Below are positions 12,912 to 15,783 of a stretch of 64,000 bases of DNA, in pieces (position 1 is the first letter of the stretch; the number at the start of each line of letters is the position of its first letter). The position numbers and the translations under genes were made by a program. The stretch spans positions 1 through 64,000 of the forward strand of contig JBFIML010000015.1 in NCBI GenBank assembly GCA_041611735.1, read 5' to 3'. Below the pieces are notes generated by a model. It saw nothing but the letters and a program-made list of their open reading frames with translations, had not been told where the DNA came from and searched no databases. This DNA comes from Myxococcota bacterium (lineage in GTDB: Bacteria; Myxococcota_A; UBA9160; PR03).

Positions 12912-13627
12912 TGGCCATGAATGCAGCTCCCTCCGGTGGCCTGGCGGACCGTCTTCGCGTGCCGAGCGGCCTGCTGCTCGGCGTGCTGGCCCTGCTCTGG
13001 CTCGGGAGCGTGGTGCGCGCGCCCGAGGACCAGATGCAGGGCGTGATCCAGAAGATCCTCTACGTACACGTGCCGGTGGTGTTCGCCGCCTACCTGGGCT
13101 TCTTCCTGACGGCCCTGGGCGGGGCCCTGTTCCTCTGGCGCGACGACGAGCGCTACGACCGGCTGGCGCGCTCGGCGGCGGAGGTGGGGGTGCTGTTCTG
13201 CACCCTGGTGCTCGTCACCGGCCCGATCTGGGCCCGGGGGACCTGGGGACGCTGGTGGTCCTGGGACCTGCGCCTCACGCTGACCCTGCTGCTCTGGTTC
13301 GTGTACCTGGCCTACCTGCTGCTGCGGGGCTTCACGGAGAGCAGCCATCGGGCGGCCCGCTTCGCCGCGGTCTACGGGATCGTGGGGGTGTTGACGATTC
13401 CCCTCAACTACTTCGCCATCGACCTGGCGGCGGGCCGGACCCTCCATCCCGAGAATCTGGGGCGAGGCAGCCTGGGGGCGGGGATGGGCTGGCCCTTCGC
13501 CCTGGGCCTGGCCACCGCCGCAGCCGCCCTGCTGCACCTGGTGGCGCGGCGGGTGGAGTTGGAGGGGTTGCGGGAGGAATTGATCCGCCGGCGCGCGGGA
13601 GCCCGGGAGGGCGCGTGGACTACCTGA
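12911..13627 (+). CDS. ccmC: Heme exporter CcmC
   Basis: 'YVHVP', WWD motif 'WGRWWSWDLRLT', 'LHP'. Confidence 0.92.
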   Translation: MAMNAAPSGGLADRLRVPSGLLLGVLALLWLGSVVRAPEDQMQGVIQKILYVHVPVVFAAYLGFFLTALGGALFLWRDDERYDRLARSAAEVGVLFCTLVLVTGPIWARGTWGRWWSWDLRLTLTLLLWFVYLAYLLLRGFTESSHRAARFAAVYGIVGVLTIPLNYFAIDLAAGRTLHPENLGRGSLGAGMGWPFALGLATAAAALLHLVARRVELEGLREELIRRRAGAREGAWTT

Positions 13628-13746
13628 TCGCGGCCTATGCCCTCGGCGTCGGGGCCCCGCTGCTCTACGGCCTCCACCTGGCCCGGCAGCGCCGGGCCGT
13701 CCACCGGGCCCTCCGGCCCCCGGGGACCAGCCGAAATCCCGGTTGA
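13615..13746 (+). CDS. ccmD: Small membrane protein, CcmD-like
   Basis: 43 aa, 'YLIAAY' + TM + basic tail, overlapping ccmC end. Confidence 0.65.
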   Translation: MDYLIAAYALGVGAPLLYGLHLARQRRAVHRALRPPGTSRNPG

Positions 13747-13771
13747 CATCCGCGCGACGTGCAAGTATAAG
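13743..13771 (+). promoter_or_regulatory. Near-consensus sigma70 promoter
   Basis: TTGACA-N17-TATAAG. Confidence 0.7.
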
Positions 13772-13861
13772 CAAAGGGTCTGTAAGCCGCGGCGTTTGTT
13801 GCCATTTTTCTGATCGAGGCAGCGGTCTTGACCCCTCCCCCCCACGGGATCGGTGCATATT

Positions 13862-14162
13862 CCGCCGGCGAGCCCGGCTTGCTGCGCCAGGCTTTGCGCA
13901 GCCGGGGCCGCTCGAGGCGGGCATGGGAAGCGCGCTTCCCACATGAGGGCCCGTGAGCCCTCCCGGCCGACACCAAGGGGAATGCGGCCCCGCCGCAGGG
14001 AGTCGGCAGGAACCGACCGGAAGCGCCCGCCCGGACTCCGGTGGCGCTCCCGCATCCGCCGAGAGGCATGCGTCTTGCTAGGTCGCTCCAACGGGCCCGG
14101 GAGCACCTGGAACTCCAGGGCGGGTGACGCCATGGAGACGAGACGGGGCCCGGGAGGCGGTC
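13862..14162 (+). ncRNA. Candidate structured RNA / long 5' leader (unassigned)
   Basis: At least 8 consecutive stem-loops, including an 18-bp perfect palindrome and a GAGA tetraloop; no credible ORF; downstream of a strong promoter. Confidence 0.45.
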
Positions 14163-14181
14163 CAAACCGAGGATGGCCAGC

Positions 14182-14670
14182 ATGAAGCGGGGCGTCGGAT
14201 ACTGCGAGAACACCGACTGCGAGGACTACGCCAAGGGCGTCTTCCTGCTCAACCACGGCGACACCTTCTACTGCCCGCGTTGTCGCCAGCTAGGCAAGGT
14301 GGAGAAGGAGCGCGGGTTCTATACCGGCAACTCCGATGTCTTCAAGGAAGTCCGCTGCGAGTACAACTTCGACCCCATCAACGGCGTCTACCGCGAGATT
14401 GCCATCGTGCGTGACGAGAGCTTGTGGGGCCGCAACAACGTCTACACGCTGCAGTCCCCCCTGATCAAGACGGAGAAGCGCGCGCTCAAGGTCGCCGAGG
14501 CGATCCTGGCCAACTTGAATCGCTACCGCGGACTGCTGAATGGCGACGAGATCCCGCGTACCACCGAGATCATCCTGTCCTTCGACGAGCCCCTCGACGA
14601 GTTCACGCGCAAGCTGGGACAGCTCAGCAAGGAGTGGGAGGCGAGCGGCTTACGCGAGACGCGCCGCTAG
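14182..14670 (+). CDS. Hypothetical protein with Cys4 zinc-ribbon-like N-terminus
   Basis: CxxxxC-x17-CxxC; GAGG SD; clean AAC/TTC/TAC/AAG-rich codon usage. Confidence 0.85.
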   Translation: MKRGVGYCENTDCEDYAKGVFLLNHGDTFYCPRCRQLGKVEKERGFYTGNSDVFKEVRCEYNFDPINGVYREIAIVRDESLWGRNNVYTLQSPLIKTEKRALKVAEAILANLNRYRGLLNGDEIPRTTEIILSFDEPLDEFTRKLGQLSKEWEASGLRETRR

Positions 14671-15686
14671 GAGTCCGGGGCGGGCCAGTACGCGCCGGGC
14701 GCCGGCGTCGGAGCGCGGTAGAGCCCGGTTCGCACGCGCACTCCCAGGGCCTGGCCCACCGCGCGCATGGTCTCCGGGCAGAAGGCGTAGGTGCGCAGTC
14801 GCGCGATCCGCCCGTCCTGCTCCTCGAAGCGGAACACAACCTCCAGGGCCTCGCGCCCCCGGCGGGTGACGAACCACAGCAGGATCGGCTCGCCTTCGAA
14901 CTCGCCGCGCTCGACGCGCAGCGAGTCGGGTTGGAATTCCAGGGGCCACTCGTCGTGGCCGTGGACCACGCGGTAGAGGATGTTGCGGTCGGTGCGCTCG
15001 AAGCTCTGGCGGCCGCACTGGAGCGCTTCGCCCACGTTCTCCACCGAGCCAGCGTCGAGCATCAGCGCGGTCAGGCCCTTCAGGTCCTTGGCGTTGTACC
15101 GCTCGATGAAGCGGTCCAGGAGGTCCCGAGACGGCACCGGCCGGCGCGAAGCCGCCGCGCCCTCGGGCTCGCGCAGGCGGCCCCGGCCACGGTGCAGCGC
15201 GGCCTTCACGGCGCCCGGGGTGGTGGCGAGCAGCTCGGCGATCTCCTCGAGGCTCAGGTCGAAGAGCTCCTTCAGCAGCACCGCGGCGCGCTCCTGGGGG
15301 GAGAGGCGCTGCAGGAGCCGGGATCCCGCATCGCGTACGTCGCCCGCCACCGCGGGATCGGTGCCGCTTGCCGGGACCGACTCGGGCTGCACCCGGGGGG
15401 TGCGGGCCTGCGTATCCCGGCGGCGCAGCTCGTCGATCCAGACGTTCGTCGCCGTGCGCAGCAGATAGGCACGTGGGTTGCGGATCTCGTGGTTGAAGAG
15501 GCCCAGGTGCCCGAAGGCCCGCAGCAACGTGTCCTGGACCAGGTCCTCGGCGTCCCAGACGTTTCCGGCCAGGCGGCGGCAGTAGCCGTAGAGGGCCGGC
15601 CGCAGCGGCACGAGCATGTCGACGTAGCGGTGCCAGGCCCTCCGCAGGTCGTCGCGCAGTGCGTCCGGAGTCTCCAGCTCGGCCAT
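14667..15686 (-). CDS. ECF sigma factor with SnoaL-like C-terminal extension
   Basis: 'DAEDLVQDTLLRA', 'ATNVWIDELRR', 'EIAELL...VKAALHRGR', then 'LLDRFIERYNAKD'. Confidence 0.88.
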   Translation of the reverse strand: MAELETPDALRDDLRRAWHRYVDMLVPLRPALYGYCRRLAGNVWDAEDLVQDTLLRAFGHLGLFNHEIRNPRAYLLRTATNVWIDELRRRDTQARTPRVQPESVPASGTDPAVAGDVRDAGSRLLQRLSPQERAAVLLKELFDLSLEEIAELLATTPGAVKAALHRGRGRLREPEGAAASRRPVPSRDLLDRFIERYNAKDLKGLTALMLDAGSVENVGEALQCGRQSFERTDRNILYRVVHGHDEWPLEFQPDSLRVERGEFEGEPILLWFVTRRGREALEVVFRFEEQDGRIARLRTYAFCPETMRAVGQALGVRVRTGLYRAPTPAPGAYWPAPDS

Positions 15687-15783
15687 GCCCCGACCTCCCG
15701 CGGCCGATCCCACCGCTCACCCCGTCATGACGGGTGAGCCCGGGTCCAGGATACGGGGGAATGCCCCGGCAGCGCCGAGCTCG

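What the first reader, a model, noticed from the sequence alone, without database searches (positions are those of the whole stretch)
13743..14181. Strong promoter followed by a ~300-nt densely structured RNA of unknown class
Seen: the longest intergenic gap in an otherwise gene-packed window, starting with TTGACA-N17-TATAAG. Near back-to-back helices follow: CCGCC/GGCGG 13862-13920 enclosing CGAGC/GCTCG and GCTGCGC/GCGCAGC; perfect palindrome TGGGAAGCGCGCTTCCCA 13924-13941; GAGGGC/GCCCTC 13945-13962; GCCGAC/GTCGGC 13966-14007 enclosing TGCGG/CCGCA; AGCGCC/GGCGCT 14022-14048; CGCAT-GCC-GAGA-GGC-ATGCG 14051-14072 (GNRA loop); GCTCC/GGAGC 14085-14104; CCTGG/CCAGG 14106-14119. GACCG(14015)/CGGTC(14158) could close a multibranch domain just before the SD. 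I recognise no RNase P, tmRNA, SRP, 6S or B12 signature. Inference: a novel ncRNA or regulatory leader, possibly forming an RNP or autoregulatory system with the downstream Zn protein. Caveat: high GC inflates chance pairing.
Basis: partly seen in the sequence, partly recalled or inferred. Interest (0 to 1): 0.75.

Follow-up and report, generated by a model that had tools for sequence, protein, structure and literature searches.

The report
Two-promoter control region, not structured RNA
The long gap before a small, very conserved zinc-ribbon gene is mainly a DNA control region with two promoters and evenly phased protein-binding motifs, and most of the RNA hairpins read in it are what GC-rich sequence gives by chance.

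Summary
The sequence features are real, but the reading as a dense ~300-nt RNA is mostly not supported. All 13 listed helices and TTGACA-N17-TATAAG sit where stated. The region folds no better than shuffles (z -0.70 and -0.77). In the nearest relative, 22 of 32 changed helix pairs are broken. No Rfam family matches.

What is conserved across 84 homologous loci of an uncultured Myxococcota order:
- sequence blocks M1-M3 at -209 to -77 of P2.

M1, M2 and M3 show no covariation. M3-to-P2 spacing falls in classes about 10-11 nt apart, which is DNA helical phasing. M2 and M3 recur before two other sigma-54-like promoters in the same genome.

One reader helix (14085-14104) does covary. Its CT-rich 5' arm lies at -5 to -1 of P2, so it can form only in RNA started upstream.

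Best reading: a tandem sigma-70/sigma-54 control region with enhancer-like sites.

This scan met the same region on another genome (e1-3524552). I confirm its two promoters but not its multi-helix RNA.

The parts
13743..13771 (+). P1: sigma-70-type promoter, -35 TTGACA (13743-48), 17-nt spacer, -10 TATAAG (13766-71). The -35 overlaps the stop codon of the upstream ccmD-like ORF. Predicted start near 13778.
   Evidence: Sequence. At least 10 of 12 hexamer positions kept in 60 of 84 loci against 2 of 252 shuffles, lying 380-752 nt before the ATG. Alignment track. Not called by the consensus scan because there is no T at -10 position 6. The start site is inferred.
13783..13812 (+). Conserved TAAGC...TTGTTGCC-TTTTT block just after P1. 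It looks like a terminator but is weak.
   Evidence: Terminator-like hit 13789-13812. A T run of 4 or more lies at a constant offset (median 33 nt after the -10) in 30 of 60 loci with P1. The hairpins before it are weak: mean -5.9 kcal/mol, mean z -0.4, 29 loci.
13824..13860 (+). M0: conserved C-rich tract followed by a G run and a GTGCGC-like motif.
   Evidence: Conservation track and printed alignments. Not tested further.
13881..13902 (+).
   Evidence: Alignment A1 of 47 loci. No covariation: M1+M2 65.4% of cells paired against 64.3% in shuffles, 65 of 500 as high.
13924..13941 (.). Likely a protein-binding DNA site.
   Evidence: The central pair 81-102 is unpaired in 33 of 47 loci (A to T, uncompensated). 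The motif has 7 distinct sites in the own genome against 1 for the backwards control. Two of them lie beside M3-like motifs and sigma-54-like promoters.
13995..14013 (+). M3: direct repeat GCAR-N7-GCAR (GCAGGGAGTCGGCAGGAAC), -95 to -77 of P2, phased with P2.
   Evidence: Columns about 90% conserved. Hairpin not conserved: mean stem 2.8 against 2.4 null, 5 bp or more in 5 of 71 loci. Distance to the GG of P2 in 70 loci: 55-60 (47), 66-70 (18), 78-80 (3), 90 (1), 112 (1); none at 61-65, 71-77 or 81-89.
14064..14079 (+). P2: sigma-54 promoter aGGCAtG-cgtc-TTGCt (GG 14065-66, GC 14077-78). Predicted start near 14090.
   Evidence: 10 of 12 consensus positions in the window. At least 10 of 12 in 81 of 84 loci against 18 of 420 dinucleotide shuffles, 55-277 nt (median 107) before the ATG. 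rpoN and 14-15 strong enhancer-binding proteins are in the genome. Consensus as in PMC2831329. The start site is inferred.
14085..14104 (+). H5: hairpin GCTCC / GGAGC around the conserved loop GGGCCCGG. The 5' arm is CT-rich and lies at -5 to -1 of P2.
   Evidence: Covariance model R1 hits 30 of 84 loci. Fitted alignment: 71.6% paired against 57.7%, covariation 0.363 against 0.183, 0 of 500 shuffles as high. Unfitted MAFFT alignment of the 20 hand-picked seeds: 74.9% against 63.4%, 0.398 against 0.227, 0 of 500. Many G-U cells point to + strand RNA.
14145..14172 (+). Conserved ribosome-binding block GGGGCCCGGGAGGCGGTCC...GAGGA. GGGCCCGGGAG repeats 14093-14103.
   Evidence: Conservation track. 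The predicted P2 leader 14090-14190 folds at z -2.49, 3 of 200 shuffles as good.
14173..14670 (+). 165-aa zinc-ribbon protein gene (alternative start ATG 14182), the regulated gene.
   Evidence: ORF and GC3 periodicity. Found in 61 of 61 genomes of the order, own genome included; full-length matches 74-98% identical, mostly 90% or more. No Pfam family above cut-off.

Best explanation
The gap is the cis-regulatory region of the zinc-ribbon gene. It works mainly at the DNA level.

A sigma-54 promoter (P2, 14064-14079) sits about 93 nt before the ATG. It would start the main regulated mRNA near 14090, giving a leader of about 83 nt.

Upstream of P2 lie three conserved blocks: M3 (-95 to -77), M2 (-166 to -149) and M1 (-209 to -188). 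These are binding sites for an enhancer-binding activator and/or a DNA-bending protein. They are kept on fixed faces of the helix relative to P2.

About 320 nt further upstream, a conserved sigma-70-type promoter (P1, 13743-13771) overlaps the end of the ccm operon. P1, or read-through from ccm, would give a second, long transcript across the whole region.

In that long transcript only, the CT-rich stretch just before the P2 start can pair with the purine-rich stretch just after it (hairpin H5, 14085-14104).

Shown: conservation of P1, P2 and M1-M3; lack of covariation and of excess folding energy; phased spacing; recurrence of M2 and M3 at other loci; covariation of H5.

Inferred: both start sites, which proteins bind, and what H5 does. 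My guess for H5 is that it marks or silences read-through transcripts, as described for CT-rich insulators inside sigma-54 promoters.

For: P2:
- The best match to TGGCACG-N4-TTGCW reaches at least 10 of 12 in 81 of 84 distinct homologous upstream regions, against 18 of 420 dinucleotide shuffles.
- The genome has one rpoN and 14-15 strong Sigma54_activat genes.
- The consensus and TGGCATG variants are documented in E. coli (PMC2831329, passages).

DNA-level constraint:
- M3-to-P2 distance falls in classes 55-60 (47 loci), 66-70 (18), 78-80 (3), 90 (1) and 112 (1). None of 70 loci falls between the classes.
- The class changes at least 13 times on a quick tree of the coding sequence.
- M2-to-M3 distance: 61-63 (2 loci), 71-74 (16), 80-83 (3), with 7 of the 28 at 112-209.
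- Enhancers usually lie 80-150 bp upstream and loop by bending (PMC4987338, passages).

Recurrence in the same genome:
- M2 has 7 distinct sites against 1 for the control.
- M3 (GCAR-N7-GCAGGAAC) has only 2 sites, both just after an identical M2.
- The M3-plus-sigma-54 pattern has only 2 hits: the window and the C10 locus.

No RNA-structure signal upstream of P2:
- MFE z -0.70 and -0.77.
- Spacers between the motifs: mean z -0.05 to -0.32 in 32-48 loci.
- M1+M2 show no covariation.
- The M3 hairpin is not conserved.
- RNAalifold finds essentially nothing between M3 and P2 in 48 loci.
- 22 of 32 changed pairs are broken in the nearest relative.

P1: conserved in 60 of 84 loci against 2 of 252 shuffles.

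H5.

Precedents: glnAp1 (sigma-70) and glnAp2 (sigma-54) with NtrC sites (PMC3870243, passages); CT-rich segments just upstream of the sigma-54 start that act only in read-through RNA (bioRxiv 10.1101/086108, abstract and passages).
Against: - No start site, sigma-54 dependence or protein binding was measured. No RNA data cover the gap.
- The window's P2 matches only 10 of 12 positions (A for T, T for C).
- No enhancer-binding protein gene lies on the window's contig.
- A pure enhancer model does not explain why P1 is conserved 380-752 nt upstream.
- H5 covaries and needs an upstream-initiated RNA, so some RNA-level function exists.
- Column-shuffle tests give z -2.2 to -3.1 for the two closest sets. 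For the part upstream of P2, pair z -2.6/-3.3 (+/-) and clade A -3.0/-1.2, but the more divergent clade B only -0.9/-0.75. This leaves room for some conserved structure. The test does not keep dinucleotides, and the signal is not strand-specific.
- The spacing classes are partly shared by descent, and the tree used is from a 486-nt, very conserved gene.
- Seven of the 28 M2-to-M3 distances (112-209 nt) lie outside the three classes, and M2-to-P2 distances spread from 38 to 278 nt.
- The H5 seeds were hand-picked for a sequence anchor, and only 30 of 84 loci match the model.
- The CT-rich arm pairs no better with the real ribosome-binding block than control windows do: -7.3 against -8.1 kcal/mol, median percentile 0.63.
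- An earlier agent of this scan read the homologous region as a multi-helix RNA.
Confidence: 0.6

Rival explanations
1. The region is transcribed from P1 as a functional conserved RNA. This would be a long regulatory leader of about 395 nt, or a separate RNA of about 310-330 nt ending at H5. Its conserved blocks M0-M3 would be RNA motifs, for example binding sites for the zinc-ribbon protein or another RNA-binding protein. The sigma-54 promoter would merely be embedded near its 3' end. This is the reading of earlier finding e1-3524552.
For: - P1 is conserved and points into the region.
- Conserved blocks fill the whole stretch from P1 to the gene.
- H5 covaries, has many G-U pairs, and can only exist in an upstream-initiated + strand RNA.
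- Column-shuffle z is -2.6 to -3.0 on the + strand upstream of P2 in the two closest sets.
- In the window and in its nearest relative the M1 place holds different perfect hairpins of 7 and 9 bp.
- Metatranscriptome contigs of relatives run 143-255 nt upstream of the ATG, though P2-to-ATG distances in relatives reach 277 nt.
Against: - No covariation for M1, M2 or M3.
- No excess folding energy in the window, in 35 loci or in the inter-motif spacers.
- The minus strand scores the same.
- Spacing quantised at about 10-11 nt, which an RNA fold does not predict.
- M2 and M3 recur at a locus (C7) with no upstream promoter in sight.
- No Rfam match.
Confidence: 0.25
2. The gap is the 3' end of the ccm operon (3' UTR and terminator region) plus one proximal promoter. 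P1 and the other blocks would be conserved only because the ccm-to-gene synteny is old.
For: - A CcmC-like gene lies upstream on the same strand in 78 of 84 loci.
- The -35 of P1 overlaps the ccmD-like stop codon.
- A terminator-like hairpin with a T run follows at 13789-13812, with a T run at a constant offset in 30 of 60 loci.
Against: - The hairpins before the T run are weak and no better than shuffles.
- TTGACA and TATAAG are kept while the spacer and the upstream coding end vary.
- The upstream DNA has diverged beyond BLAST detection in all but one relative, while the motifs and their spacings persist. That shows selection, not inertia.
Confidence: 0.07
3. Apart from a promoter, the hairpins and palindromes are chance features of GC-rich DNA with no function.
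For: MFE no better than shuffles. Most reader helices break in the nearest relative.
Against: Block conservation across an order whose upstream DNA is otherwise unalignable. Phased spacing. Recurrence of M2 and M3 elsewhere in the genome. H5 covariation.
Confidence: 0.05

Closest known systems
Tandem sigma-70 / sigma-54 promoters with enhancer sites, as at E. coli glnA (glnAp1, glnAp2, NtrC sites) and glnH
   Same: A distal sigma-70-type promoter and a proximal sigma-54 promoter serve one gene, with conserved sites for a regulator upstream of the sigma-54 promoter. In glnA the activator both represses p1 and activates p2, and p1 gives a low constitutive level (PMC3870243, passages).
   Different: Here P1 lies about 320 nt upstream of P2, far more than I recall for glnA (distance recalled, not from a call). 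The motifs (GGGAAG-N4-CTTCCC; GCAR-N7-GCAR) are not the NtrC site as I recall it. The activator is unknown and none is encoded nearby. Nothing here is experimentally mapped.
CT-rich 'insulator' (anti-Shine-Dalgarno) segments encoded inside sigma-54 promoters (Levy et al., bioRxiv 10.1101/086108; glnKp)
   Same: A pyrimidine-rich stretch lies just upstream of the sigma-54 start (in glnKp centred at -4). The promoter itself cannot transcribe it. It acts only in read-through RNA by pairing with a purine-rich stretch downstream (abstract and passages). Here -11 to -1 is 63% pyrimidine against 48% in controls, with a CT run of 5 or more in 39 of 84 loci. The stretch forms the 5' arm of the covarying hairpin H5.
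   Different: The partner of the CT-rich arm is a purine-rich stretch at +11 to +15 (GGAGC, 14100-14104), not the gene's ribosome-binding site about 60 nt further on. Pairing with the real ribosome-binding block is no better than for control windows. Silencing of translation is untested.
Autoregulatory structured leaders of ribosomal-protein and other RNA-binding-protein genes (Rfam cis-regulatory families)
   Same: A long conserved non-coding stretch before a small, highly conserved, apparently highly transcribed gene with a zinc ribbon weakly like eS31/S27a.
   Different: No Rfam hit. No covariation except one hairpin. No excess stability. The protein is not a ribosomal protein by any test here: the Pfam S27a match is below cut-off, 16.8 against 22.3 bits.

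Membership tests
Sigma-54 (RpoN) enhancer-dependent promoter | -24 GG and -12 GC elements in the arrangement TGGCACG-N4-TTGCW | tested here: met
   Window aGGCAtGcgtcTTGCt, 10 of 12, with GG and GC at the exact spacing. At least 10 of 12 in 81 of 84 loci against 18 of 420 shuffles. Consensus checked in PMC2831329.
Sigma-54 (RpoN) enhancer-dependent promoter | The organism encodes sigma-54 and enhancer-binding ATPases | tested here: met
   One Sigma54_DBD gene. 20 Sigma54_activat matches, 14-15 of them strong; none on the window's contig.
Sigma-54 (RpoN) enhancer-dependent promoter | Upstream enhancer sites, usually 80-150 bp upstream, bound by the activator | tested here: inconclusive
   Conserved M3 (-95 to -77) and M2 (-166 to -149), with spacing in steps of about 10-11 nt and recurrence at other sigma-54-like promoters. 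Binding itself cannot be tested with these tools.
Sigma-54 (RpoN) enhancer-dependent promoter | Transcription start about 12 nt after the GC, dependent on rpoN | not testable with these tools
   RNA runs laid were contigs of relatives and did not cover the gap.
Sigma-70-type promoter (P1) | -35 TTGACA and -10 TATAAT-like hexamers 16-18 nt apart | tested here: inconclusive
   -35 matches 6 of 6, -10 matches 5 of 6 but lacks the final T, so the consensus scan does not call it. Conserved in 60 of 84 loci against 2 of 252 shuffles. Start site not testable.
Known RNA family (Rfam 15) | Covariance-model score at or above the family's gathering score | tested here: not met
   0 hits in the window. 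Lenient scan of 13600-14300: one hit, 12.6 bits against a gathering score of 100, E 3.1.
Structured cis-regulatory leader or ncRNA (generic) | Conserved secondary structure supported by covariation | tested here: not met
   M1+M2: 65.4% against 64.3% paired, covariation 0.131 against 0.124, 105 of 500 shuffles as high. M3 hairpin: 2.8 against 2.4 bp. M3-to-P2 region: no consensus fold. The nearest relative breaks 22 of 32 changed pairs. Exception: H5, one 5-10 bp hairpin.
Structured cis-regulatory leader or ncRNA (generic) | Folding energy below that of composition-matched shuffles | tested here: not met
   z -0.70 and -0.77. 35 loci: mean -0.74 on both strands. Only the short predicted P2 leader 14090-14190 reaches z -2.49.
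Intrinsic terminator (13789-13812) | Stable GC-rich hairpin directly followed by a U run | tested here: inconclusive
   Pattern hit with 5 pairs. The T run is conserved at a fixed offset in 30 of 60 loci. The hairpins average -5.9 kcal/mol, z -0.4.

The most novel reading that the evidence does not exclude
P1 makes a conserved + strand RNA of roughly 310-400 nt that runs over the sigma-54 promoter. This RNA, not only the DNA, would carry function. Hairpin H5 and the repeated GGGCCCGGGAG and GGAGGCG blocks would decide whether upstream-started transcripts are translated. The zinc-ribbon protein or another factor would bind the conserved blocks. In addition, the shared M2 and M3 motifs would define a small sigma-54 regulon. 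That regulon would tie this ultra-conserved zinc-ribbon protein to the Pup-proteasome operon of the same genome.
Probability: 0.2. Interest if true: 0.6.

Novelty: new member of a known kind. Interest (0 to 1): 0.3.

Why it matters
As a candidate new RNA class it mostly falls away, which saves follow-up effort. It also corrects an earlier reading of the same region in this scan.

What remains is useful on a smaller scale. It is a cleanly conserved, phased sigma-54 control region in an uncultured Myxococcota order, in front of a 165-aa protein of unknown function. That protein is 90% or more identical across most of the order and is well represented in the four soil or outdoor metatranscriptomes laid.

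The shared upstream motifs give a testable handle on its regulator. They also suggest a link to the Pup-proteasome operon.

The one validated hairpin may be a natural example, outside E. coli, of a promoter-embedded element that tells read-through transcripts apart from promoter-own transcripts.

Tried and rejected
- RNA evidence. 24 coded runs hold only small shares of the stretch. Four metatranscriptomes laid at 80% likeness cover the coding part, but nothing lay on 13732-14109. Relatives' upstream DNA is too diverged to lay, so this says nothing either way.
- Two 20-nt pieces of contig loose ends were searched in my 117 loci, to place transcripts that run 143-255 nt upstream. No match. Dropped.
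- Hairpin at M3 with a conserved CAGGA loop. It looked compensatory between the window and its nearest relative, but is not conserved. A CsrA-type GGA-loop idea was dropped with it; I did not search for csrA.
- Small ORF in the gap (13828-13956, 42 aa, TTG start after GAGG). Rejected: there is no codon periodicity, and the C-run length varies between loci, which shifts the frame.
- Terminator right after P1. The hairpins are no better than shuffles.
- The CT-rich arm as a direct anti-SD against the real ribosome-binding block. Not better than control windows.
- Protein function. No Pfam family above cut-off. PDB sequence search gave only a weak eS31 zinc-ribbon match, E 4e-4. The AlphaFold model has mean pLDDT 65.8. 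Foldseek against PDB found nothing at E <= 0.001.
- A crude ORF-based gene map missed many genes and was replaced by the periodicity scan.
- Not used: metagenome-contig scan, the search of protein representatives, complex prediction, protein atlas.
Full report
**The observation.**
The gap between a ccmC/ccmD-like operon (ending at 13746) and a 165-aa zinc-ribbon ORF (14173-14670) is truly non-coding. Codon-position GC periodicity is strong in both flanking genes and absent from about 13750 to 14140. 13681-14205 is the longest low-periodicity stretch of the window. As a set they are not more than chance. The + strand of 13775-14185 folds at -206 kcal/mol against -201.4 +/- 6.5 for dinucleotide shuffles (z -0.70, 25 of 100 as good). 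The core 13855-14125 gives z -0.77 (42 of 200). The minus strand scores z -1.70. Rfam 15 gives nothing at gathering scores in the whole window, and only a chance hit (E 3.1) in a lenient scan. The DNA is single-copy in its genome.

**Relatives.**
The protein is found in 61 of 61 genomes of the same order, own genome included. Full-length matches are 74-98% identical, mostly 90% or more. Record titles name uncultured Myxococcota MAGs, and 212 genome stretches encode a relative. The upstream DNA is alignable by BLAST only in one genome (74% over 415 nt), apart from about 30 nt next to the ATG in three others. From 115 loci that hold the gene start I took 86 distinct upstream regions. 84 of these are at least 500 nt long.

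Printing the upstream regions showed TGGCACG-N4-TTGC in nearly all of them. The best match reaches at least 10 of 12 positions in 81 of 84 loci, against 18 of 420 dinucleotide shuffles. It lies 55-277 nt (median 107) before the ATG. In the window it is aGGCAtGcgtcTTGCt at 14064-14079. The genome has rpoN and 14-15 strong enhancer-binding proteins, none on this contig. The consensus, including TGGCATG variants, matches that listed for E. coli (PMC2831329, passages). The predicted start is near 14090, which leaves a leader of about 83 nt. That short leader folds somewhat better than shuffles (z -2.49).

An E-INS-i alignment of the 84 regions shows conserved blocks at the following places:
- P1 (both hexamers);
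- 13783-13812;
- M0 (13824-13860);
- M1 (13881-13902);
- M2 (13924-13941);
- M3 (13995-14013);
- P2;
- 14093-14103;
- the ribosome-binding block.

P1 keeps at least 10 of 12 hexamer positions in 60 of 84 loci, against 2 of 252 shuffles. It lies 380-752 nt before the ATG, and its spacer is not conserved. A CcmC-like gene lies upstream on the same strand in 78 of 84 loci.

**Is the stretch between P1 and P2 a structured RNA?**
The tests say mostly no.
- The 400 nt before the ATG in 35 loci give mean z -0.74 (+) and -0.76 (-).
- The spacers between motifs in 32-48 loci give mean z from -0.05 to -0.32 on the + strand.
- On an unfitted MAFFT alignment of 47 loci, the M1 and M2 palindromes pair in 65.4% of cells against 64.3% in shuffles (65 of 500 as high). 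Covariation is 0.131 against 0.124 (105 of 500). The central M2 pair is unpaired in 33 of 47 loci.
- The hairpin at M3 has a mean stem of 2.8 bp against 2.4 for the null, and reaches 5 bp or more in 5 of 71 loci.
- RNAalifold finds essentially no consensus between M3 and P2 in 48 loci.
Of the other 32, 4 changed compensatorily, 6 changed on one side and still pair, and 22 broke. The segment 13855-13925 aligns poorly, and both sequences hold different strong hairpins there, which I count in favour of the rival.
- Column-shuffle tests give z -2.2/-2.9 (+/- strand; pair), -3.1/-1.7 (clade A) and -2.1/-2.3 (clade B) for whole leaders. For the part upstream of P2 they give -2.6/-3.3, -3.0/-1.2 and -0.9/-0.75. 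The signal is weak and not strand-specific, and the control does not keep dinucleotides.

**Evidence that the blocks act as DNA.**
The distance from the second GCA of M3 to the GG of P2 in 70 loci falls in discrete classes. These are 55-60 (47 loci; the window is at 59), 66-70 (18), 78-80 (3), 90 (1) and 112 (1). None lies at 61-65, 71-77 or 81-89. M2-to-M3 distances in 28 loci fall at 61-63 (2), 71-74 (16) and 80-83 (3), with 7 further out at 112-209. Steps of about 10-11 nt are one turn of B-DNA. The class changes at least 13 times on a quick tree of the coding sequence. That tree comes from a short, very conserved gene, so the figure is rough.

M2 (GGGWAG-N4-YTTCYC) has 7 distinct sites in the genome, against 1 for the backwards control. 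M3 (GCAR-N7-GCAGGAAC) has only two sites: the window, and contig C7 directly after an identical M2. At C7 the M2-to-M3 gap is 32 nt shorter, and a sigma-54-like motif follows about 59 nt later. The combined pattern of M3 plus a sigma-54 promoter has two hits in the genome: the window and contig C10. Enhancers usually lie 80-150 bp upstream and act by looping (PMC4987338, passages). Here M3 and M2 lie at -95 to -77 and -166 to -149.

**The one helix that holds.**
A covariance model built from 20 seeds finds it in 30 of 84 loci. I picked those seeds for a CCCGG anchor, which is a selection caveat. On the fitted alignment, 71.6% of cells pair against 57.7%, and covariation is 0.363 against 0.183 (0 of 500 shuffles as high; best slid control 0.253). 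On the unfitted seed alignment the figures are 74.9% against 63.4% and 0.398 against 0.227 (0 of 500). G-U pairs are frequent, which fits + strand RNA. In the window the 5' arm lies at -5 to -1 of P2 (up to -10 to -2 in the model). It is therefore absent from RNA started at P2 and present only in RNA from P1 or from ccm read-through.

This matches the place and logic of the CT-rich insulators described inside sigma-54 promoters. In glnKp the insulator is centred at -4 and acts only in read-through RNA (bioRxiv 10.1101/086108, abstract and passages). Here -11 to -1 is 63% pyrimidine against 48% in controls. However, its pairing with the real ribosome-binding block is no better than that of control windows. 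The function of H5 therefore stays inferred.

**Verdict.**
The best reading is a tandem sigma-70/sigma-54 control region with phased upstream sites, comparable to glnAp1/glnAp2 (PMC3870243, passages). It also carries one RNA hairpin specific to upstream-started transcripts. An earlier report of this scan on another genome (e1-3524552) described the same region as a conserved multi-helix RNA with two promoters. I reached the two promoters independently and confirm them, along with the lack of an Rfam match. I could not confirm multi-helix conservation. RNA data did not help: the metatranscriptome contigs laid covered only the coding part.

Noticed in passing
window 14173-14670: The 165-aa zinc-ribbon protein is extraordinarily conserved: found in 61 of 61 genomes of the order, mostly 90-98% identical, with 433 relatives in the protein collection. 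It has no Pfam family above cut-off, only a weak eS31/S27a zinc-ribbon likeness and no fold match. Its GC (0.57-0.65) is lower than that of its neighbours (0.70-0.78).
   Followed up: partly
window 14164-14600: In four soil or outdoor metatranscriptomes, contigs of relatives (80-99% alike) pile up on the coding part at summed depths in the hundreds. The flanking ccmC and ECF sigma genes show 0-7. The runs were found with this gene, so this is only a hint of high expression.
   Followed up: no
own genome, L124 (G000:C10:44300-47300): A second long gap (about 660 nt) after a LolA-like gene carries the same kinds of element. These are M2 (700-715), an M3-like repeat (731-748), TTGACA-N16-TAGACT (952-979), another M3-like repeat (1148-1165), a sigma-54 promoter cGGCACGtggaTTGCa (1224-1239), and a CT-rich stretch before the predicted start. 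The gap precedes an AAA ATPase with proteasomal-ATPase OB domains. Downstream follow two Pup-ligase-family genes and two proteasome subunit genes. This suggests a possible shared sigma-54 regulon of the zinc-ribbon gene and a Pup-proteasome operon.
   Followed up: partly
own genome, L119 (G000:C7:10945-12160), positions 601-760: An identical M2 16-mer is followed after 22 nt by GCAGGGCGCGTGCAGGAAC (M3). About 59 nt later comes aCGCACGcttcTTGCa, which has CG where sigma-54 needs GG. The ATG of a lipoprotein-like ORF with no Pfam family follows.
   Followed up: partly
window 14173-14190: ATGGCCAGCATGAAGCG is almost invariant at the nucleotide level, third codon positions included. GAGGA sits 8-12 nt before the second ATG (14182). 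The true start may therefore be 14182, with the first codons doubling as ribosome-binding sequence.
   Followed up: no
window 14093-14103 and 14146-14156: GGGCCCGGGAG occurs twice: at the predicted 5' end of the P2 mRNA and just before the ribosome-binding site. Both copies are conserved. Because GGGCCC is self-complementary, the predicted fold of the P2 leader pairs the two copies. Both copies are invariant, so covariation cannot test this.
   Followed up: no
window 13881-13902: M1 in relatives (TGCGAC-N5-TTGCG) has the layout of a sigma-54 promoter but with GC-GA in place of GG-CA. I have no explanation for this.
   Followed up: no
window 14667-15713 (- strand): A convergent gene encodes an ECF-type sigma factor (Sigma70_r2, r4_2) with a C-terminal extension that weakly resembles SnoaL_2. 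Its stop codon overlaps that of the zinc-ribbon gene.
   Followed up: no
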